Origin: a virus
Taxonomy: Duplodnaviria; Heunggongvirae; Uroviricota; Caudoviricetes
Reading direction: 5' to 3' (one strand)
Length of the DNA stretch: 31,860 nt
IMG/VR virus record: IMGVR_UViG_2778261226_000007
The first letter of the stretch is position 1, and each line of letters starts with the position of its first letter. Position numbers and translations under genes: made by a program. Under the pieces are notes generated by a model. It was not told the origin of the DNA. It saw only the letters and a list, made by a program, of their open reading frames with translations, and made no database searches. Positions 409-27,644 of this stretch are shown in pieces.

Positions 409-764
409 CAGTGAGTGACCTCTTCAAAGGTACAGTTAAAATCGGTATACATGGCATTATCCGAAATGCTCCACTCCCTGCAGACAACCCGGACAGTCCT
501 GTTGTGTTTTGGCGGGCGCCACAAAAAAGCACGAATCCCGGCATGACGGGATAAAAAACTGTCCAGCGCGGCACGGGAGTATTCATCTGTGACACGAAAT
601 ACCGGTTTAAACGTTTTCAGATCCGCATTCAGCCCACCAGCCCGTCGCTGTTCATATCCGTCACCAAACTTTACCGTAATAACTGATGGCTTTCGTGTCG
701 TCTCCATCCCCTCACGGGGGATCCAGTTAAAAACTTCAGGCTCAGGCACTGTATAATCCTCCAT
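408..764 (-). CDS. Minor tail protein M (lambda gpM-like)
   Basis: Contains FGDGYEQRRAGGLNADLKT and SFLWRPP, resembling lambda gpM, and lies between the tape measure and gpL genes. Start is ambiguous: MEDYTV at 764 or METTRK at 707 (the latter has a GAGGGG RBS). Confidence 0.7.
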   Translation of the reverse strand: MEDYTVPEPEVFNWIPREGMETTRKPSVITVKFGDGYEQRRAGGLNADLKTFKPVFRVTDEYSRAALDSFLSRHAGIRAFLWRPPKHNRTVRVVCREWSISDNAMYTDFNCTFEEVTH

Positions 765-3700
765 CCCGACGCGATGACTGCATAATTGACACAACCCTGC
801 TGTCGATCAGATCCACCAGTCCCCTGGCTGAGCGCGTATCTATCTCGCCATTGCTCCCTTGATTCTGAATGCTAATGTGATACACGGGAGAATAAACAAA
901 TCCACCGCCACCATTCACATTGCCAATGGCTCTGACCCCAAGAGAGCCGTCCGCTGCCCGTGTCAGTGGCATGATAGCTTCAGGCCCGGCCTCGCCCATC
1001 AGCCCGGCACCTTTCGCAAAAGCAAAATACGTCGGTGTATCCACAATAGTGTTACTGTAAGCACTCAGATTTGCCGATGTGTAAACACCACCTTTTGCGT
1101 TTGCCACCGCCCCCGAAATCCATCCGCCGACCGTACCAAGCCACCCTCCGGCACCGGAGAGTGACTTCAGTCCGTTAACAATGGCCGCATTCATCAGAAT
1201 TTTTGAAACTTCCCGGAGAACTGAACTCCCCCAGTTCCTCCACTCCACAACATTCCCGGCCAGTGCATCGGAAATATTTGATACCAGCCCGTCCATCGTG
1301 GAAACAACAGCATCTGCCGCCTGTGAAGCATAATCGGTGGCACTGTCTGCCCAGTTGGTCAGTCCCTCCTGGAGTCCGGCATTCCAGTTATTACGTAAAG
1401 CATCGGCCTTTGCATAATAATCCTGCTGATCGCTGAGACGCTCTTCCAGATATTTTTTATTCAGTTCTTTCTCCTGTTTCCACAGGGCTTCTTCAATTTC
1501 TCCGGCCTGATACTGTCTCAGCAGCTCGTTATTTTTCTGCTCAAACTCATGCCGGATACTCCACATTTCCTGGAGTCGTTCACGCATCCGTGAGCCTTCA
1601 CCATATCCCAGCAACTGCGCGTCGTCAGATGCCCGGGCACTGGCATTACTGTCCGCCAGACTGCTTTCATACGCGGCAAGCTGCTCACGAATCTTTTTCT
1701 GGTCGATGAGTGCTGCATTCTGCAAAAGCGTTTTTTTCTGCGCTTCTGACAGGGTTGATAATTCGCCCTGACTGACCTGATATTTCATCTTAGCCAGTTC
1801 AGTATTCTGCCCTGCCAGTGCTATCTGTTCTTTTTGCTGTTTAATCAGCCGTTTATAAATATCTTCTGTTTTTTCCGCTTCGGTCTTTTTATGCGCTTTG
1901 GGTTTATTTGCCTGGTTATTTCGCCAGGCATCCAGTGAGTTATTGATATAATTCTGTCTGGCTGTCCGATACGCCTCTCCCACAAAGCCGAGATCATCCG
2001 CAGCATAGCCCAGTCGGGCACGCTCACGCGCTTCCCCCTTAAGGCGGGACAGAGCCAGTTCGCGCTTGCTGTTATTCAGTGCGGTCTGCTGTTTATCATC
2101 CAGAGTTGCCTGTGGTAGCCGTAACGGTACATTCACCAGCCCCTGTCGCTGCTGAAGTAATTCATTACCAAGCCCGAGAAGGCGATTAAACTCGGTATGC
2201 TTCCCATTCATGATCAACAGGGACTGATACGCTTTGTTTTGTTCCGCTGCCTGTTGACGGATCAACGCCACTCGTCGCTCCTCCAGCCCGGCAAGCACAT
2301 CCTGAATGGATTGCGCTTTGCCCTGCATTTGTGTGAGACGGGACTGTTCAACTGCCAGTTGATTTGTTGCTTCTGCAAGCCCTTTAAGGATGATTTCAGC
2401 ACCAGAACCACTCTGCGAACTTTCATCAAGCCAACGTTGATAATCAGCAATTTGATTTTTCAGTCCGCGAATTTTTCCTTCCTGTTCGTTAATCAGGCGA
2501 TTTTGTTCCTCCAGTGCCTGCCGCGTCTTTTCCTCATTATCTGACGCTTCAGGAAGCGACATTGCCGACGTTTTCTGACGAATTTCGTCGATTGTTGCGG
2601 CATACTGGCGTGCAGATTCTCTGGCCTGCTCCTGATTCTGATACATCGTGTACCAGGCCGTCGCCCCCAGCATGACGAGTCCCGGCACACCACCAACCAG
2701 CCCCAGCGCACCACTTAATAAACGACTCCCCACTGACGTGACAGTATTCAGCGTTGTCTGTGCTGCTGTTCTGGCCGCAATATTACGGGTAAGTGATGCC
2801 TGGGCAGCAGCCAGTTTCGCTTCTGCGGCTGCCTGTCTTTCAGTACCACGGGTAGCCGCGACCGCCTGTTGCGCACGATAAACCGCCGCACGCGCCCTGG
2901 CGGTTGCTATCTGCGTCCCCCGGAGCTGCGCTTCCGCAAGAGCTACTTCGTTTCTGGCTGCAGTAATTAATCCGGCAGTTGCAGATCCAGCAGAAGATGC
3001 CATATTGCCAAAATATCGGGCTACCCCGACGGCAACCAGAGCACCGGCAGCGGTTGCCACAGTGTCAATATTGCCTGCAATACCATTCAGCACACCGGAG
3101 AGCGTCTTCGTCACTCCGCTTGCTTCGTTCGCACCACCAACCCAGGCCATAAAGGCGTTTTCAACTTTGGTTGCAGAGGATGAAACCGTATCAGGCATTG
3201 CTGCATATTCATCACGCAACGCCCCAAGCTGACTAATCAGTGCAGGAACAACCTTATCGGCGGTCAACTTTCCGTTATCCGCCATGGCCTTCAGATCCTT
3301 ACGGGCAACACCCATTCCCGCAGCCAGCGCACGAATAACACGATCGCCGTTCTCATTCACAGAGTTAAATTCTTCACCGCGCAGCACTCCCTGCGCCAGT
3401 GCCTGACTGAACTGCGTGATCACCGAACTGGCTTCTGCTGCACTGGCACCGGATAATTTCAGGCCCGTGGAGATAGCCTCGGTGACTTTCAGTACCTCCT
3501 CAGAACTGTAGCCATACTCCCGCATGGAAGCTGCAGAGCGGGCAAAAAGGCTGGCGTTATCAGAAAACGCCGTTCCCGTTCTCTGGCTGATTGCCATTAA
3601 TTCACGTTGTGATACCTGAAAATCATCAGTGGACTGTGAGGCCTGCTTCAGACGGGCATTTACTGAATTCCACTCATCGGCGAGAGAAATAAGATGACCG

Positions 3701-3942
3701 GTAGCAAAAGCCCCGGCAAATGCCCCCGCCATATTCAGTGCCGAAGATTTAGCTGTATTTATCTGATCCGTCACTTCTGCCAGTGCACGCCGCATTTCAC
3801 GGGATGCAGCAGCGGACTGCCGGCCTCCGTTCTGCATGGTACGGTAGTAATCCTGCCCCATACGCGAAGCCCGGGAGATCTCTGACTGGAATGACCGGGA
3901 ATTTGCCGAGATTTTAATAATCAGCTCACGTAATGTCGCCAT
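742..3942 (-). CDS. Tail tape measure protein
   Basis: 1066-aa ORF with long Ala/Gln-rich coiled-coil stretches, located directly after the tail assembly chaperone pair as in lambda/HK97 tail modules. Confidence 0.9.
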   Translation of the reverse strand: MATLRELIIKISANSRSFQSEISRASRMGQDYYRTMQNGGRQSAAASREMRRALAEVTDQINTAKSSALNMAGAFAGAFATGHLISLADEWNSVNARLKQASQSTDDFQVSQRELMAISQRTGTAFSDNASLFARSAASMREYGYSSEEVLKVTEAISTGLKLSGASAAEASSVITQFSQALAQGVLRGEEFNSVNENGDRVIRALAAGMGVARKDLKAMADNGKLTADKVVPALISQLGALRDEYAAMPDTVSSSATKVENAFMAWVGGANEASGVTKTLSGVLNGIAGNIDTVATAAGALVAVGVARYFGNMASSAGSATAGLITAARNEVALAEAQLRGTQIATARARAAVYRAQQAVAATRGTERQAAAEAKLAAAQASLTRNIAARTAAQTTLNTVTSVGSRLLSGALGLVGGVPGLVMLGATAWYTMYQNQEQARESARQYAATIDEIRQKTSAMSLPEASDNEEKTRQALEEQNRLINEQEGKIRGLKNQIADYQRWLDESSQSGSGAEIILKGLAEATNQLAVEQSRLTQMQGKAQSIQDVLAGLEERRVALIRQQAAEQNKAYQSLLIMNGKHTEFNRLLGLGNELLQQRQGLVNVPLRLPQATLDDKQQTALNNSKRELALSRLKGEARERARLGYAADDLGFVGEAYRTARQNYINNSLDAWRNNQANKPKAHKKTEAEKTEDIYKRLIKQQKEQIALAGQNTELAKMKYQVSQGELSTLSEAQKKTLLQNAALIDQKKIREQLAAYESSLADSNASARASDDAQLLGYGEGSRMRERLQEMWSIRHEFEQKNNELLRQYQAGEIEEALWKQEKELNKKYLEERLSDQQDYYAKADALRNNWNAGLQEGLTNWADSATDYASQAADAVVSTMDGLVSNISDALAGNVVEWRNWGSSVLREVSKILMNAAIVNGLKSLSGAGGWLGTVGGWISGAVANAKGGVYTSANLSAYSNTIVDTPTYFAFAKGAGLMGEAGPEAIMPLTRAADGSLGVRAIGNVNGGGGFVYSPVYHISIQNQGSNGEIDTRSARGLVDLIDSRVVSIMQSSRRDGGLYSA

Positions 3943-3956
3943 TTACTTTACCCCAT

Positions 3957-3981
3957 AAAAAAACCGCTTCTGCGGTTTTTT
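3957..3981. terminator. Hairpin with flanking A-run and T-run (bidirectional intrinsic-terminator-like)
   Basis: aaaaaaaccgcttctgcggtttttt: stem accgc/gcggt flanked by A7 and T6, between the lipoprotein gene stop and the tape measure start. Confidence 0.5.
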
Positions 3982-3991
3982 AAGATGATAA

Positions 3992-4333
3992 TTATTGGCA
4001 AAACAACTTATATTTTTCCATACTGCTTGGATCATGATCATTAACAATTGTTACAGTCCCATGACTCTTAACTTTTCCATCCACAACTTCCAAATAAACA
4101 AAATATGGCTTTTTCCCTGTATATCCACCAAACGTGTTTTTTGAATTAACATCACCACAAACATAACCATATAAATCACCTGACTTATGAAAAAAAGAAT
4201 TAAATTTTGCACTATCAGGATCAATAAGCTTATCTTTAACTAAGTTTTCCCCTAAAGAAATAACATAATTATCTGATGGCTTACATGCACTAATAAAAAA
4301 CAAACAAGCTAATGTCACCACTGATTTTCTCAT
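3992..4333 (-). CDS. Small lipoprotein (moron-like insertion in the tail module)
   Basis: Start MRKSVVTLACLFFISAC gives a signal peptide plus lipobox Cys, with an AGGAGG RBS. The segment is visibly AT-rich compared with flanking tail genes. Confidence 0.6.
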   Translation of the reverse strand: MRKSVVTLACLFFISACKPSDNYVISLGENLVKDKLIDPDSAKFNSFFHKSGDLYGYVCGDVNSKNTFGGYTGKKPYFVYLEVVDGKVKSHGTVTIVNDHDPSSMEKYKLFCQ

Positions 4334-4391
4334 GATTAATCCTCCTGACTTTGAGTAAAGCATTCAATTTCAAAACGATTAAAAAATTATC

Positions 4392-4682
4392 TTATAGTGA
4401 AGACATTAGAGCAACCTCTAATCCAATAAATGGATCATCGCATTTATTTTCTTCTGATTCATGCTCCCACTGAAGAAGCGCATCATTCAGTGGTACTTTG
4501 ACACCCTGCGCACCGTAAACAGCTGAAACAATCTGGGCAGCCCGGATATCAGCCCGTTCGTCCCCCAGCGGGCTGAACCTGTCAAATTCTGCCCACATCA
4601 TGATTTCTGATGCGGACATTTCCCGGCGTAACTCTGACAATGTGCGCCCCATCCTGAGTGCCAGCATCATCAGAAAACGCAT
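4392..4682 (-). CDS. Tail assembly chaperone, frameshift-extension segment (lambda gpT-like part of a G-T fusion)
   Basis: ORF lies in the -1 frame relative to the upstream chaperone ORF and immediately downstream of a slippery A AAA AAG site, positioned between the major tail protein and tape measure genes. Confidence 0.65.
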   Translation of the reverse strand: MRFLMMLALRMGRTLSELRREMSASEIMMWAEFDRFSPLGDERADIRAAQIVSAVYGAQGVKVPLNDALLQWEHESEENKCDDPFIGLEVALMSSL

Positions 4683-4693
4683 CCCCGGAAGCG

Positions 4694-5080
4694 CTACTTT
4701 TTTTTAACCTCGCCGGCATCACTGATCAGTTCCAGAGACTGCCGAAGAAGCCGCGCATGCACCGGGCCATACACGGCAATCACCTGTTCACGATCATCCT
4801 CTGAAAATACAGGTTGCAGTCCGGTATCACACAGAACATCAATGAACAGTTCAACATCTGCCTCCAGATTTCGGCGGGCGCGCTCCGCAACGGATAACGG
4901 TGTCTCATCATCTTTTGCTTTAACGATCTCCTGCCAGCGCAACCAGGCTTCTGCAGAAGGTTCCCGTAATACAACCGTTGCCCCTTCCCATTCAGGCACA
5001 TCAACAGTTTTATGGCGAAACCCCGACATCGTTGCCAGAGCCAGATTACGGATATTTTTAGTCATCACACCCATCCTCAT
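4694..5080 (-). CDS. Tail assembly chaperone (lambda gpG-like)
   Basis: Sits directly downstream of the major tail protein gene and ends in the slippery run ...GEVKKK*. Its start overlaps the major tail stop (TAATG). Confidence 0.7.
   Translation of the reverse strand: MRMGVMTKNIRNLALATMSGFRHKTVDVPEWEGATVVLREPSAEAWLRWQEIVKAKDDETPLSVAERARRNLEADVELFIDVLCDTGLQPVFSEDDREQVIAVYGPVHARLLRQSLELISDAGEVKKK
4697..4703 (-). promoter_or_regulatory. Programmed -1 ribosomal frameshift slippery heptamer (A AAA AAG)
   Basis: Minus strand reads G GTT AAA AAA AAG TAG at the end of the G-like ORF. A -1 slip continues as KKVALPG into the 4392..4682 ORF. Confidence 0.65.
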
Positions 5081-5784
5081 TAACTGACGGTTACAGTGCA
5101 GGAAGTGGAGGTCACTTTGTTAACCGGGCTTGCTGAATCAGAAATCTCGCAGGTATATGCGCCCGCATCACCGGATACTGCCAATGCCTTACTGAACGTT
5201 GCCGCCGTCTGTCCGGAAACAGGAGAACTACCTTTCTTCCAGACATAAGAATAAGGCGGCACACCACCGGCAGCCTCAACCACCATTTCGAGTTTCGCTC
5301 CGGCAGAAACCTGCAGCGTGCTGTTTAAATCGACCTTCACTTTCAGCGGCTCTGTCGTCAGCACAGGTTTACCTTTCAGGCGCAGGGAAAACGTTGCAGC
5401 CACAACACCATTGGTTCCTGCAGACCAGGTATGCTGACGCACCTCTGCCATAAAGGTAAATCCGTTTCCTGACGGAAAAATAACTTTAAAGCCATACGTG
5501 GTGTCATTGTCATAGGCACTGCGCAACGCGTTCTGGGCAGCATTGAGGTAAAAGTTGCCTGACATGGAAATCTCTGACGCGGCACCAAGACCGTTAATAT
5601 TTTCCTGCTCAACAGAACACAGCGTGGTGACATCAATATCCTGCTTTTGTCCTGCGGTAAACTGCACCTCTTTGATTGTACAGCTCAGGCCAAGATAGCT
5701 GGCAGAATCCAGGGTTTCTGCTGTTACCGGTGCAGACGAAATCATAATTTTCGTCAGTTGCGAACGCTCAAAATTAGAGGACAT
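5080..5784 (-). CDS. Major tail protein with C-terminal Ig-like domain
   Basis: 234-aa ORF upstream of the chaperone pair. The C-terminal ~80 aa (PYSYVWKKGSS...AYTCEISDSASP) looks like a Big_2/Ig-like decoration domain common on phage major tail proteins. Confidence 0.75.
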   Translation of the reverse strand: MSSNFERSQLTKIMISSAPVTAETLDSASYLGLSCTIKEVQFTAGQKQDIDVTTLCSVEQENINGLGAASEISMSGNFYLNAAQNALRSAYDNDTTYGFKVIFPSGNGFTFMAEVRQHTWSAGTNGVVAATFSLRLKGKPVLTTEPLKVKVDLNSTLQVSAGAKLEMVVEAAGGVPPYSYVWKKGSSPVSGQTAATFSKALAVSGDAGAYTCEISDSASPVNKVTSTSCTVTVS

Positions 5785-5844: not shown

Positions 5845-6189
5845 TCAGGCTATTACCTGAAATTCAAGCGTGGCTCTGCTCAGACGGGAATCAGGATCAT
5901 AACCCTGAGTTTTAGAAATAACGGAGGGTGCAAGTTGCCTTACCGCATCAAGCGCCTGCTCACGGATATCATCTGCGTCATCAGGTACTGTTGCCCAGAC
6001 ATCGATCTGCACGGTAATTCTGGATTCAGCCTGACCATCAAGCACATCAGACGCCGTGTCAGACACCACAGAAAACACCAGCCACGGCGGAGATACCGCA
6101 GGCTTTCCCTCCGTCAGCGGGACCACATAAGGATAAACCTGTCCTCCGGCCAACTGAGACAGCAGGGAATACAGTGTGGCTTCCCTCAT
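5845..6189 (-). CDS. Tail completion/terminator-like protein (DUF3168-like)
   Basis: Position between the head-tail joining genes and the major tail gene; size and order match an HK97-like module. Confidence 0.55.
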   Translation of the reverse strand: MREATLYSLLSQLAGGQVYPYVVPLTEGKPAVSPPWLVFSVVSDTASDVLDGQAESRITVQIDVWATVPDDADDIREQALDAVRQLAPSVISKTQGYDPDSRLSRATLEFQVIA

Positions 6190-25765: not shown

Positions 25766-26455
25766 ATGAAGAACGTCAAAAACACGGAAAATCGAATAGC
25801 CGCGATGCTGAAAGCAAAAGGATGGACTCAGGCTCAACTGGCCCGCAAGTTAGGTGTGAGTGCGCAATCAGTGCAGTACTGGACAACAGGAAAGACATTT
25901 CCACGGAGTGATAAGCTTGCGCAGTTATCAGAGATTAGCGGTTATCCACAATCCTGGTTCTTAGGTGAAGACCCCTCACCGACCTTCTCCTCGCCAGAGA
26001 AACACCAGACAAGAACAGATAGCGTCGTGTTTAATGTCCTTGATGTTGAGTTCAGTTGCGGTGATGGAACTCATGTCCGTGGTGACTTGATAGATGTAGT
26101 GCGCTCAATAGAACTTGATCCTGAATATGCCCGACGTCTTGTTGGAAATCGGGCATTCAAAAATATAGAAATAGGTAACGCCAGAGGAGACAGTATGGCT
26201 CCCACAATCTCACCTGGCGACCTTCTTTTTCTCGATAAGACAGTAACTTATTTTGATGGAGATGGCATTTATGCATTTTGTTTTGATGGAGAATGCTACG
26301 TGAAAAGACTTCAAAAAATTGGAAGCAAAATCATGGTGTTATCTGATAACCCCAATTATCAACCATGGAGCATCGAAAAAGAGGGTTTAGCTCTGCTTTA
26401 TATCCAGTCTAAAGTGATCTCATCTGTACCATTCAATATAAACAGATTTGGTTAG
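25766..26455 (+). CDS. CI-type prophage repressor (HTH plus S24 LexA-like autopeptidase domain)
   Basis: N-terminal HTH (GWTQAQLARKLGVSAQSVQYW); C-terminal domain with the catalytic Ser in GDSMAP and Lys in YVKRL. Confidence 0.85.
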   Translation: MKNVKNTENRIAAMLKAKGWTQAQLARKLGVSAQSVQYWTTGKTFPRSDKLAQLSEISGYPQSWFLGEDPSPTFSSPEKHQTRTDSVVFNVLDVEFSCGDGTHVRGDLIDVVRSIELDPEYARRLVGNRAFKNIEIGNARGDSMAPTISPGDLLFLDKTVTYFDGDGIYAFCFDGECYVKRLQKIGSKIMVLSDNPNYQPWSIEKEGLALLYIQSKVISSVPFNINRFG

Positions 26456-26467
26456 TCTTTGATTTTA

Positions 26468-26489
26468 ACGGGCTTTGCCCGTTTTTTTC
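26468..26489 (+). terminator. Intrinsic terminator after the repressor gene
   Basis: acgggctttgcccgt followed by ttttttt. Confidence 0.6.
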
Positions 26490-26518
26490 TGCCTAAAATA
26501 CACGATATCAATTTTTTC

Positions 26519-26547
26519 TTGACAGCCTATTTCGCAAAGCATAATAT
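26519..26547 (+). promoter_or_regulatory. Strong sigma70-type promoter (pL-like)
   Basis: TTGACA (26519-26524), a 17-nt spacer and TAATAT (26542-26547); CTTGAT/ATCAA operator-like half-sites lie just downstream (26554-26575). Confidence 0.6.
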
Positions 26548-26600
26548 CGCGCCATCAACTATAACTTGATTTGATTCAATTTAAAATTGTTGGTGGGTAT

Positions 26601-27053
26601 ATGAAGACACTAAACGCAACTCCAGAAACAACTAATTTTATCAACTGCGGCTGTGTTACGCTTGAAGGCTTAGAACTTGATTCCTTTGCATTAAATATTG
26701 CAAATTTGCTAAGTGCTGTACGCACATTCCATCTTCTTGATTGTGCTCGCTCAAAGGAACTAGGCATTGAGGTAATGGAATTTATCCATGAATATGCTCT
26801 ATCTGCGGCTTCTCCTGCACGACAAAAACAATCCTTCCCTAAAAGCTGGCTGGTTAACCTTCACACCCAACGCGAAGCCTGCGGCTTAACAACCGCCGAA
26901 CTCGCCAGGCTGCTCGATCTCGATGAAGAAATCATCATCCAGTGGGAGAGCGGAGAGTATGAACCAACTATCAGTATGCTTATCCCACTGGCAAATATTC
27001 TTGGCTGCGATCCGATGTGGTTATTGACTGGTAGCAATGCTACAAAGGAGTAA
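26601..27053 (+). CDS. Uncharacterised protein with C-terminal XRE-type HTH
   Basis: Start taken at MKTLNAT with a GGTGGG RBS (ORF-track start is a TTG). C-terminal HTH (LTTAELARLLDLDEEIIIQWESGEYEPTISMLIPLANILG). The N-terminal domain is paralogous to the next gene's product. Confidence 0.6.
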   Translation: MKTLNATPETTNFINCGCVTLEGLELDSFALNIANLLSAVRTFHLLDCARSKELGIEVMEFIHEYALSAASPARQKQSFPKSWLVNLHTQREACGLTTAELARLLDLDEEIIIQWESGEYEPTISMLIPLANILGCDPMWLLTGSNATKE

Positions 27054-27058
27054 CAGCA

Positions 27059-27259
27059 GTGAATAGTAATATCCATGACAATTTCGAAGGTATTTGTCTG
27101 GCATCGGATTCATTTGCAATAAACATTCATAGTCTGTTGTGCGCTGCGCAAGTTTTACAGATGTCAAATAATCAGAATGCAAAAACATTAGGTGATGAAA
27201 TCCTGTCTTTTGCATGTGAATATTCGAAAGCTGCAGTCAAAAAAGAATTAGCGCAATAA
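27059..27259 (+). CDS. Small protein paralogous to the N-terminal domain of the preceding HTH protein
   Basis: GTG start with an AAGGAG RBS 8 nt upstream. Alignable to the upstream product (EG..L.SFA.NI..LL.A......K.LG.E...F..EY). Confidence 0.5.
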   Translation: MNSNIHDNFEGICLASDSFAINIHSLLCAAQVLQMSNNQNAKTLGDEILSFACEYSKAAVKKELAQ

Positions 27260-27455
27260 CAATAAATATTCACTGAATGTTTATTACGGTTTTATCGCCG
27301 GGGATTGTTGCAACCTTTATTCGCAGGAGATTATGTTATGACTTTCCTGAAACATAAGGCATCGTATAAAACTGCCTGCCTCATTGCACAACATGGAGAT
27401 TCTTATCTTCATATAGCCAACCTGTATTTGCGCAAAGCATATGGGAGATAAATAA

Positions 27456-27644
27456 ATGAAAGAAAAACAACAAAACATAACACATAAAAAAGTAAGAGTG
27501 TTGCTAACCATTGAAAATGGTGAAGTAATTTACTCAAAACATCTGTTGGATAATGAATTCGTTGGCTGCATGGATACATTTCTGTGGATGGCAAAAAGAG
27601 CTGGCTACACGATTATTCCACCAGCAAAGGAGCAAACATTATGA
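27456..27644 (+). CDS. Hypothetical small protein (62 aa)
   Basis: GGGAG RBS; stop overlaps the next gene's start (ATGA). Confidence 0.45.
   Translation: MKEKQQNITHKKVRVLLTIENGEVIYSKHLLDNEFVGCMDTFLWMAKRAGYTIIPPAKEQTL

What the first reader, a model, noticed from the sequence alone, without database searches (positions are those of the whole stretch)
3957..4390. AT-rich lipoprotein gene inserted between the tail assembly chaperone and tape measure genes
A 113-aa lipoprotein with a strong RBS and a downstream terminator hairpin interrupts the normally contiguous G/GT-H tail gene order, and its composition contrasts with the GC-rich tail genes. Phage lipoproteins in tail modules can mediate superinfection exclusion by masking receptors (for example Cor or Llp), which is a candidate role here.
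Basis: partly seen in the sequence, partly recalled or inferred. Interest (0 to 1): 0.5.

Follow-up and report, generated by a model that had tools for sequence, protein, structure and literature searches.

The report
Prophage lipoprotein moron beside tape-measure gene
A small, AT-rich accessory gene for an outer-membrane lipoprotein of unknown function sits in a known "add-on" slot of an E. coli prophage tail operon; it belongs to a very large uncharacterised phage family that is often encoded next to tape-measure genes, and it is a testable candidate for blocking infection by other phages.

Summary
On the minus strand, a 113-aa lipoprotein gene (3992-4333; AGGAGG 7 nt upstream; lipobox ISAC) lies between tail chaperone G/GT and the tape measure gene of an HK97-like E. 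coli prophage. GC is 0.30 against about 0.52 in the flanks, and a hairpin plus U-run follows (3958-3981). The gene is real: dN/dS is 0.08 between two alleles.

The AT-rich mosaic segment (3942-4448) is missing from closely related phages. It occurs in 18 of 902 E. coli genomes that share the backbone. This is the archetypal moron slot of HK97 gp15, with the same layout.

The protein is not a Cor/Llp relative by sequence, PHROG family or fold. It belongs to phrog_2320, along with ES18 gp20 ("possible moron"). This is a cystatin/NTF2-like periplasmic domain with about 9,900 cluster representatives and no Pfam family or known function.

Members are lipoproteins, AT-rich and terminator-followed. 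They sit mostly beside tape measure genes (47 of 80 viral loci, also in Campylobacter). Others lie in K|I, P2 ogr|int, Mu-like and integrase-proximal sites.

The most likely role is an envelope-located superinfection-exclusion factor. This is inferred, not shown. I rate it a new member of a known kind, of moderate interest.

The parts
3992..4333 (-). 113-aa lipoprotein gene (moron cargo). It consists of a signal peptide (residues 1-16), lipid-modified Cys17, and a mature 97-aa domain of about 90 folded residues with a cystatin/NTF2-like fold.
4283..4294 (-). Lipobox I14-S15-A16-C17. Lys at +2 and Pro at +3 (no Asp) predict Lol sorting to the outer membrane.
   Evidence: Read directly from the sequence. 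A16-C17-K18-P19-S20 are nearly invariant. A lipobox is present in 78 of 80 viral-contig homologs. The +2 rule is established knowledge and was not tested here.
4341..4346 (-). Shine-Dalgarno AGGAGG, 7 nt upstream of the ATG at 4333.
   Evidence: Read directly from the sequence.
3958..3981 (-). Hairpin (AAAAAACCGC-AGAA-GCGGUUUUUU) followed by a further U. It looks like an intrinsic terminator and lies 15 nt before the TMP start.
   Evidence: Folding gives -15.3 kcal/mol, z -4.4 and -11.7 kcal/mol, z -3.5. Equivalent hairpins occur at the same junction in HK97 (annotated terminator), Citrobacter loci and the empty site of phage Evi.
3942..4448 (-). AT-rich mosaic segment that replaces 104 nt of the 'empty' junction in phage Evi. 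It carries the last 19 codons of T (a diverged allele), the intergenic leader, the lipoprotein gene and the hairpin. Its left boundary is at the TMP start codon.
   Evidence: blastn of the window against Evi shows homology at window 4700-4449 (95%) and 3941-3801 (99%), with nothing between them.
4386..4414 (-). Weak candidate promoter (TTGCTC, 17 nt, GATAAT; 8 of 12 matches) overlapping the T stop codon. Speculative.
   Evidence: Found by manual reading. It falls below the threshold of the scanner and of my own scan.
4392..4682 (-). Tail assembly protein T, the downstream part of the G/GT frameshift product.
   Evidence: PF06223 at 3.4e-18. phrog_337 and phrog_14766.
4694..5080 (-). Tail assembly chaperone G. 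The slippery run GTT AAA AAA AAG TAG lies at 4708-4694.
   Evidence: PF06222 at 2.8e-58. Sequence.
742..3942 (-). Tail length tape measure protein (1066 aa), immediately downstream of the moron.
   Evidence: PF06120, PF20155 and PF09718. phrog_339.

Best explanation
This is a moron: a self-contained accessory cassette lodged in the T|H (chaperone|tape measure) slot of an HK97-like, Q-antiterminated E. coli prophage.

Shown:
- A 507-bp AT-rich mosaic segment is absent from close relatives. Because it includes a diverged 3' end of T, it probably arrived by recombination within T and at the TMP start, not by a clean insertion.
- It carries one constrained gene for a lipoprotein of the phrog_2320 / ES18 gp20 family.

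Predicted:
- The Sec and Lgt/LspA pathway lipidates Cys17, and Lol delivers the protein to the inner leaflet of the outer membrane, since there is no Asp at +2.
- There it displays a roughly 90-residue cystatin/NTF2-like domain in the periplasm. Two nearly invariant cysteines (C59, C112) probably form a disulfide.

Inferred:
- The gene is transcribed with the late tail operon and possibly from a weak promoter of its own in the lysogen. The hairpin would stop such transcripts before the TMP gene.
- The protein acts on the cell envelope to keep out superinfecting phages. The most probable step is periplasmic: the incoming tail tip and tape-measure/ejection apparatus crossing the peptidoglycan and periplasm. 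Masking of an outer-membrane receptor is less likely.
For: Moron anatomy:
- The segment is absent from 11 related phages and present in only 18 of 902 E. coli genomes that carry the backbone.
- GC is 0.30 against 0.52.
- A hairpin plus U-run lies downstream.
- HK97 gp15 has the identical layout, annotated as moron plus terminator. It was described as the first moron, lying between the chaperone and tape measure genes, expressed from the prophage and blocking genome entry (PMC3594210).
- The same slot on the same backbone holds another envelope protein in one strain.

Real gene: omega is 0.083.

Lipoprotein: the lipobox is conserved.

Periplasmic domain:
- The model is confident.
- Some family members are fused to SPOR, SH3_3 or TonB_2 domains.

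Lysogeny or defence type of cargo, judged from where family members sit:
- P2-like ogr|int.
- Next to integrases or S24 repressors.
- After a Mu-like repressor.
- At the ends of M. abscessus prophages.
- Beside HsdR and a Cap4 nuclease.

Link to the entry apparatus:
- 47 of 80 viral loci lie just upstream of a TMP gene and 9 just downstream.
- 15 of 80 species-representative genome loci are TMP-adjacent. The TMP-adjacent genome loci include Pseudomonas, Janthinobacterium and Campylobacter.
- One member follows the internal virion (ejection) proteins of a T7-like element.
Against: - No experiment or characterised homolog supports any function. There are no Pfam, NCBIfam, PADLOC or PDB sequence matches.
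- The fold is generic.
- No consensus promoter lies upstream in this window. Expression in the lysogen is therefore unproven, and the gene may be purely late.
- The terminator-like hairpin also exists at empty sites.
- Adjacency to TMP genes could simply reflect a permissive, non-overlapping junction and inheritance by linkage. Many of the 80 viral loci are near-duplicates of a few lineages.
- The defence-island neighbours number only two.
Confidence: 0.45

Rival explanations
1. Cor/Llp-type receptor masking. The outer-membrane lipoprotein binds the periplasmic face of an outer-membrane receptor such as FhuA, LamB or OmpC and locks it in a state that phages cannot use. This would protect lysogens and spare progeny from adsorbing to debris.
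For: The protein is of the same general kind: a small phage-encoded outer-membrane lipoprotein with a disulfide-capable periplasmic domain. Cor and Llp are established examples (annotation; PMC11436027; PMC3594210). Late co-transcription would suit a lytic-conversion role.
Against: It is not homologous to Cor or Llp. Its fold is not among the top matches to Llp. Cor and Llp lie beside receptor-binding or fibre genes, whereas this family clusters beside TMP genes and occurs in phages with very different tail tips and hosts. That distribution is hard to reconcile with one receptor.
Confidence: 0.15
2. A host-fitness or virulence conversion factor unrelated to phage exclusion, for example serum or complement resistance like lambda Bor, envelope-stress buffering, adhesion, or immunity to a periplasm-acting toxin such as a colicin or T6SS effector.
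Against: There is no similarity to Bor or any annotated family. The family lives overwhelmingly in phage contexts across many phyla and lifestyles, including environmental bacteria. That argues against an animal-host-specific role. The structural similarities are generic.
Confidence: 0.2
3. A late-phase helper of the phage's own cycle. It would be an accessory periplasmic factor made with the tail proteins that modulates lysis or peptidoglycan hydrolases, or that conditions the envelope for release, with no benefit to the lysogen.
For: The gene is on the same strand as the late tail operon and inside it, with a strong ribosome-binding site and no detectable own promoter. Fusions to SPOR, SH3 and TonB-C domains point to peptidoglycan proximity.
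Against: It is dispensable, being absent from 98% of prophages with the same backbone. Other family members sit at prophage ends or next to repressors and integrases, outside late operons. It is followed by a terminator, as are morons expressed from prophages.
Confidence: 0.15
4. It is not a functional gene but a chance ORF in AT-rich junk DNA or a decaying insertion.
For: It is annotated only as a hypothetical protein and has no family name.
Against: Omega is 0.083 with dS 0.29. The full-length profile match is 2e-33. There are 9,877 related cluster representatives. The signal peptide, cysteines and motif are conserved. The model is confident.
Confidence: 0.01

Closest known systems
HK97 gp15 moron (superinfection exclusion; Juhala et al. 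2000; Cumby et al. 2012, as summarised in PMC3594210)
   Same: The genomic slot and layout are the same. Reading along the gene strand: T stop, about 57 nt, a small AT-rich gene (GC 0.37), a hairpin plus U-run, about 12-15 nt, then the TMP start. The product is an envelope protein. The TMP is of the same HK97 type (PF06120).
   Different: The proteins are unrelated. gp15 is a 62-aa inner-membrane protein like YebO (phrog_5031), and BLASTP finds no alignment. This product is a 113-aa outer-membrane lipoprotein with a folded periplasmic domain. The function of gp15 is shown experimentally; the function here is not.
Salmonella phage ES18 gp20 and the rest of phrog_2320
   Same: It is a true homolog: phrog_2320 at 3.2e-35, tblastn 1e-7 with 41% identity over the core. 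It is a lipoprotein lying directly upstream of the tape measure gene, followed by an annotated terminator, and annotated 'possible moron; function unknown'.
   Different: gp20 is longer (151 aa, with an N-terminal linker) and lies in a distantly related tail module. No function is known for it, so homology does not give a mechanism.
Cor (phi80, N15, HK022) and T5 Llp, the FhuA-inactivating lipoproteins (phrog_1119)
   Same: They are small phage-encoded outer-membrane lipoproteins that act from the periplasmic side, and they are moron or lytic-conversion genes.
   Different: There is no sequence similarity. The PHROG family differs. Llp structures are not among the best fold matches. The genes lie next to receptor-binding or fibre genes, not the TMP gene.
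Ltp of Streptococcus thermophilus phage TP-J34
   Same: It is a prophage lipoprotein that excludes superinfecting phages. Its reported target is the tape measure protein (Bebeacua et al. 2013, cited in PMC3952083). This is the mechanism I favour here.
   Different: Its host is Gram-positive and the protein is surface-exposed. The protein was not compared with Ltp here; Ltp's helical-repeat fold is from my own knowledge. The gene lies in the lysogeny module, not the tail operon.
Lambda Bor
   Same: It is a prophage-encoded outer-membrane lipoprotein moron of E. coli.
   Different: There is no match to the Bor Pfam family at E<=0.1. Bor lies near the lysis genes and confers serum resistance.

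Membership tests
Moron (sense of Juhala et al. 2000) | Extra DNA relative to otherwise closely related phages | tested here: met
   Flanks are 95-99% identical to phage Evi and others, but 3942-4448 is replaced there by 104 nt. Only 18 of 902 E. coli genomes with the backbone carry it.
Moron (sense of Juhala et al. 2000) | Nucleotide composition different from neighbouring genes | tested here: met
   GC is 0.30 against 0.51-0.52. 70 of 80 homologs are also AT-richer than their flanks.
Moron (sense of Juhala et al. 2000) | Own terminator | tested here: met
   A hairpin plus U-run lies at 3958-3981. A similar hairpin is also present at empty sites, so it may belong to the slot.
Moron (sense of Juhala et al. 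2000) | Own promoter | tested here: inconclusive
   No consensus sigma-70 site lies upstream. There is only a weak 8/12 candidate at 4386-4414. Across homologs, 15 of 66 upstream regions have a site against 6.8 expected.
Moron (sense of Juhala et al. 2000) | Expression from the repressed prophage | not testable with these tools
   Needs RNA-seq or reporter data from a lysogen.
Bacterial lipoprotein (SPase II substrate) | Basic n-region, hydrophobic h-region and lipobox [LVI][ASTVI][GAS]C | tested here: met
   MRK-SVVTLACLFF-ISAC. The motif is conserved in the alignment and in 78 of 80 viral homologs.
Bacterial lipoprotein (SPase II substrate) | Actual lipid modification and outer-membrane localisation | not testable with these tools
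   Predicted only from the +2 Lys under the Lol avoidance rule.
phrog_2320 / ES18 gp20 family | Full-length profile match and the conserved DPxSAxF ... VCGxVNxKNxxGGYxG motif with two cysteines | tested here: met
   phrog_2320 at 2e-33 over residues 1-113. ES18 gp20 and the Fraca homolog fall in the same PHROG.
Cor/Llp superinfection-exclusion lipoproteins (phrog_1119) | Sequence homology to Cor or Llp | tested here: not met
   BLASTP gives no alignment to Cor and E 9.6 to Llp. phrog_1119 is not among the hits, while Cor and Llp both hit it.
Cor/Llp superinfection-exclusion lipoproteins (phrog_1119) | Llp-like fold | tested here: not met
Cor/Llp superinfection-exclusion lipoproteins (phrog_1119) | Gene adjacent to receptor-binding or tail-fibre genes | tested here: not met
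   llp lies next to oad (pb5) and cor lies after J and the fibre region. This gene lies between T and the TMP gene.
Cor/Llp superinfection-exclusion lipoproteins (phrog_1119) | Receptor-dependent exclusion phenotype | not testable with these tools
   Needs adsorption and plating assays.
HK97 gp15 / YebO-like exclusion proteins | Sequence homology to gp15 | tested here: not met
   BLASTP gives no alignment. gp15 is phrog_5031.
HK97 gp15 / YebO-like exclusion proteins | Location in the T|H slot with a terminator before H | tested here: met

The most novel reading that the evidence does not exclude
This gene is a member of a very large family (about 10,000 clusters at 50% identity) of phage-borne periplasmic lipoproteins that has no name and no known function. 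The family would form a new class of superinfection-exclusion factors that neutralise the incoming tape-measure/ejection apparatus in the periplasm. On this reading, the genes are kept next to TMP genes, from Enterobacteria to Pseudomonas and Campylobacter, because linkage to the entry machinery they target is selected.
Probability: 0.25. Interest if true: 0.7.

Novelty: new member of a known kind. Interest (0 to 1): 0.42.

Why it matters
The slot and the anatomy are textbook (the HK97 gp15 moron), so the insertion itself is ordinary. What may matter is the cargo. Its domain is found in thousands of phages and prophages across Proteobacteria, Campylobacterota and Actinobacteria. It has no Pfam family and no known function, and it is repeatedly encoded beside the genes for the DNA-ejection apparatus.

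If it proves to be an entry-blocking factor, it would add a widespread class of prophage defence that current defence catalogues do not hold (no PADLOC hit). It would also give a genetic handle on how tape-measure proteins cross the periplasm. The experiment is cheap: one small gene and standard E. coli phages.

Tried and rejected
- Known families: Pfam, NCBIfam and PADLOC scans of the protein gave no family. PDB sequence searches with the single protein and with a 58-member profile gave nothing even at E<=10.
- Pfam scan of 58 family members: only sporadic fused domains (SPOR in 2, SH3_3 in 1) and weak noise.
- Literature: searches on ES18 gp20, phrog_2320, and lipoprotein with moron and tape measure found no study of this family. 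Three papers were checked and found irrelevant to this gene: the Tai tail-assembly-interference paper, the LF82 moron transcriptome paper and the 'window into lysogeny' paper. Cumby et al. 2012 could not be read.
- Promoter search: nothing upstream in the window.
- Rejected: the longer 123-aa ORF starting at 4363. It has no ribosome-binding site, homologs start at MRK/MKK, and PGAP uses 4333.
- Rejected: a clean insertion event. The replaced segment includes a diverged 3' end of T.
- Rejected: an o-spanin. The gene is not in the lysis cassette and the product is a folded 97-aa domain.

Full report
**1. What is there**

The window is an E. coli prophage. It is 100% identical to NZ_CP076272 (strain E21845/O/A) and four other genomes over the region. 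It has HK97-type head genes, a lambda-like tail and a Q antiterminator, all on the minus strand.

The ORF at 3992-4333 (-) encodes 113 aa, MRKSVVTLACLFFISAC|KPSDNY.... An AGGAGG box (4341-4346) lies 7 nt before the ATG. The N-terminus is a textbook lipoprotein signal: a basic MRK, a hydrophobic core and the lipobox I-S-A-C17. The motif A16-C17-K18-P19-S20 is nearly invariant in homologs.

Upstream lie G (PF06222, 2.8e-58) and T (PF06223, 3.4e-18), with the slippery run GTT AAA AAA AAG TAG at 4708-4694. Downstream lies the 1066-aa tape measure protein (PF06120, PF20155, PF09718).

The gene has GC 0.304 against 0.51-0.52 in its flanks. It is the most AT-rich stretch of the window.

A 10-bp hairpin followed by a U-run (3958-3981) ends 15 nt before the TMP ATG. 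Its MFE is -11.7 to -15.3 kcal/mol and z is -3.5 to -4.4. The simple scanner did not call it, probably because the A/U pairs absorb the T-run.

**2. It is a real gene**

Two alleles occur in E. coli (>=99% and 92.5% nucleotide identity). Between them dS is 0.29 and dN is 0.024. Omega is 0.083 overall and 0.045 for the mature part. This is tighter than for the neighbouring TMP (0.18).

The exact protein is on 698 contigs of the public collection, always named 'hypothetical protein'.

**3. It is extra DNA, and the slot is a known one**

Eleven sequenced Escherichia phages (Evi, phi467 and others) match the flanks at 96-99% but lack the middle.

blastn against Evi places homology at window 4700-4449 and 3941-3801. 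The window segment 3942-4448 (507 nt) replaces 104 nt in Evi. The segment includes the last 19 codons of T. These are protein-homologous but diverged at the DNA level and are also AT-rich. It ends exactly at the TMP start codon, which is ATG here and GTG in Evi. This points to acquisition by recombination with a phage that already carried the cassette, not a clean insertion.

Of 5,426 complete E. coli genomes, 902 carry this tail backbone. Only 18 carry the cassette, always in this slot.

In a spread sample of 60 of the 902 matching genomes, the junction was almost always empty. One strain holds a different cargo there: a 113-aa two-TM zinc-ribbon membrane protein whose C-terminus resembles the HK022 gp20 moron.

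The junction is the archetypal moron site. [quoted passage not shown] It is expressed from the prophage and blocks genome entry (PMC3594210).

The HK97 record shows the same layout: T stop, 57 nt, gp15, an annotated terminator, 12 nt, then H. Its GC is 0.37 against 0.51-0.53.

Hairpin plus U-run elements precede the TMP start in HK97, in Citrobacter loci, in the window and also in the empty site of Evi. The terminator is therefore best seen as part of the slot.

**4. What the protein is**

There is no Pfam, NCBIfam or PADLOC family and no PDB sequence relative.

The protein matches phrog_2320 (unknown function) at 2e-33 over its whole length. Salmonella phage ES18 gp20 matches the same PHROG. 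gp20 is annotated 'possible moron; function unknown', lies directly upstream of the ES18 tape measure gene and is followed by an annotated terminator. A 55%-identical protein of phage Fraca also falls in phrog_2320.

An exhaustive profile search finds 9,877 cluster representatives at E<=1e-3 and 551 at E<=1e-10. The core is conserved: DPxSAxF ... (G)YVCGxVNxKNxxGGYxG, plus a C-terminal Cys.

Some members carry C-terminal SPOR, SH3_3 or TonB_2 domains. This fits a domain that works in the periplasm near the peptidoglycan.

With Lys at +2, the E. coli sorting rule predicts outer-membrane localisation. The two nearly invariant cysteines suggest a disulfide. Both points are inferences.

**5. It is not Cor or Llp**

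- HK022 Cor and T5 Llp were retrieved. BLASTP finds no alignment to Cor and E 9.6 to Llp.
- Both fall in phrog_1119, which the query does not hit.
- Their genes sit next to receptor-binding or fibre genes, not the TMP gene.
- The protein is also unrelated to gp15.

**6. Where the family lives**

Homologs at 48-58% identity in Citrobacter, Enterobacter and Salmonella prophages occupy the same T|TMP slot. Those prophages have different tail-tip modules. The homologs have GC 0.35-0.36 against about 0.53 and a hairpin plus U-run before the TMP gene.

I classified the 80 best IMG/VR loci by tblastn with reference tail proteins.

| Position of the family gene | Loci (of 80) |
|---|---|
| Immediately upstream of a TMP gene (43 with a recognisable chaperone upstream) | 47 |
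| Between K and I | 10 |
| Between TMP and M | 9 |
| P2-like D/ogr\|int position | 6 |
| Unclassified | 8 |

Among the same 80 loci:
- 78 have a lipobox.
- 70 are at least 0.05 AT-richer than their flanks.
- 62 have a T-run within 60 nt downstream.

These loci are redundant: the 79 usable loci give 66 distinct upstream regions, drawn from a handful of lineages. The counts therefore overstate independence.

In a sample with one genome per species, 15 of 80 loci have the family gene next to a recognisable TMP gene. The TMP-adjacent genome loci include Pseudomonas, Janthinobacterium, Pantoea, Xenorhabdus and Campylobacter concisus. Sensitivity for TMPs was limited.

Other contexts:
- After the repressor region of a Mu-like element.
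- After the internal virion proteins of a T7-like element.
- Next to an integrase or an S24 repressor.
- At the ends of M. abscessus prophages.
- Twice beside defence genes, HsdR and a Cap4 nuclease.

HK97 gp15-like proteins occupy the same two slots as this family: T|H in HK97 and K|I in HK022 gp20. The slots therefore exchange envelope-directed cargo.

**7. Mechanism**

Shown:
- The cassette is dispensable, mobile by recombination and under purifying selection.
- It encodes a protein with a conserved lipoprotein signal and a folded periplasmic domain.

Inferred:
- It is an accessory (moron) function that acts on the cell envelope.
- Its recurrent placement at lysogeny-type positions in other phage types argues for a benefit to the lysogen.
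- Its recurrent placement beside the genes of the DNA-ejection apparatus supports superinfection exclusion at the periplasmic entry step. So do the precedents of gp15 in the same slot and of the Ltp lipoprotein, whose reported target is the TMP.
- I put this at about 0.45. Receptor masking, an unrelated host-fitness role and a purely late phage-cycle role are at about 0.15-0.2 each.

Weak points:
- No consensus promoter lies upstream in this window. Only an 8/12 candidate at 4386-4414 was found. Across homologs, promoter-like sites are only about twofold enriched (15 of 66 against 6.8 expected).
- Adjacency to TMP genes may reflect a permissive junction and linkage.
- The fold is uninformative.

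**8. Verdict**

The finding is real and is correctly described as an AT-rich lipoprotein gene interrupting G/GT-H. It is a new member of a known kind: a moron in the classic gp15 slot. Its proposed kinship with Cor and Llp is not supported.

The interest lies in the cargo family. It is very large, phage-borne, unnamed and repeatedly linked to tape measure genes, which makes it a cheap and well-defined candidate for a new class of exclusion proteins.

Noticed in passing
L107 592-933 (E. coli QA-1986 630, NZ_CP101920.1), equivalent to window slot 3943-4391: The same T|TMP slot on the same backbone carries a different cargo. It is a 113-aa protein with two TM helices and a zinc ribbon (GC 0.39). 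Its C-terminus (EYLQEARRKAGLL) resembles the HK022 gp20 moron. The Evi-type hairpin follows it.
   Followed up: partly
L002 4355-4690 (phage Fraca): In the K|I slot of Fraca, the family homolog is followed directly by a second lipoprotein-like ORF (MKKIILPIFIFLLMGC..., phrog_914, unknown function). The slot therefore holds a two-gene lipoprotein cassette.
   Followed up: no
window 3940-3942, against L001 about 1747-1749: The TMP start codon is ATG in the window and GTG in phage Evi. The mosaic boundary falls exactly there, so the cassette also changes the initiation codon and ribosome-binding region of the tape measure gene.
   Followed up: partly
window 4694-4708 (-): The G gene ends in GTT AAA AAA AAG TAG. 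This A-run is the expected -1 slippery site for the G/GT fusion. The T frame reads ...KVALPGMRFLMML after the slip, matching HK97 GT.
   Followed up: partly
L007/L008 about 5955-5990: The Enterobacter and Citrobacter homologs have a 9-bp inverted repeat (CCCTATGAG ... CTCATAGGG) just upstream of the ribosome-binding site. It may be a regulatory or terminator hairpin in front of the moron gene.
   Followed up: no
L004 about 3990-4003, L005 about 3835-3847, L002 about 3990-4003: The homologs in SEN5 (P2-like), ES18 and Fraca share the leader TAGGGATATG immediately before the start codon, although they sit in different slots and phage types. The mobile unit may therefore include the translation-initiation region.
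   Followed up: no
L113 (Isosphaeraceae MAG) 2283-5000 and L130 (Sphingomonas yabuuchiae) 4110-5318: Two distant family members lie beside defence genes, a type I restriction R subunit and a Cap4 dsDNA endonuclease, and not in recognisable prophage tail modules.
   Followed up: partly
L164 5899-6231 (Campylobacter concisus): A family member (signal peptide; no lipobox cysteine evident) lies 115 nt upstream of a TMP gene (PF20155, 7e-59). The TMP-adjacent placement therefore extends to Campylobacterota.
   Followed up: partly
L104 6001-6576 (Acinetobacter venetianus): A 191-aa family member follows the large internal virion proteins (Phage_lysozyme2, then an 854-aa protein) of a T7-like element and precedes its terminase. 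It is therefore next to the podovirus ejection proteins.
   Followed up: no
window 26400-27600: This is a second AT-rich stretch (GC 0.35-0.36) in the early/immunity part of the prophage. It was not examined.
   Followed up: no
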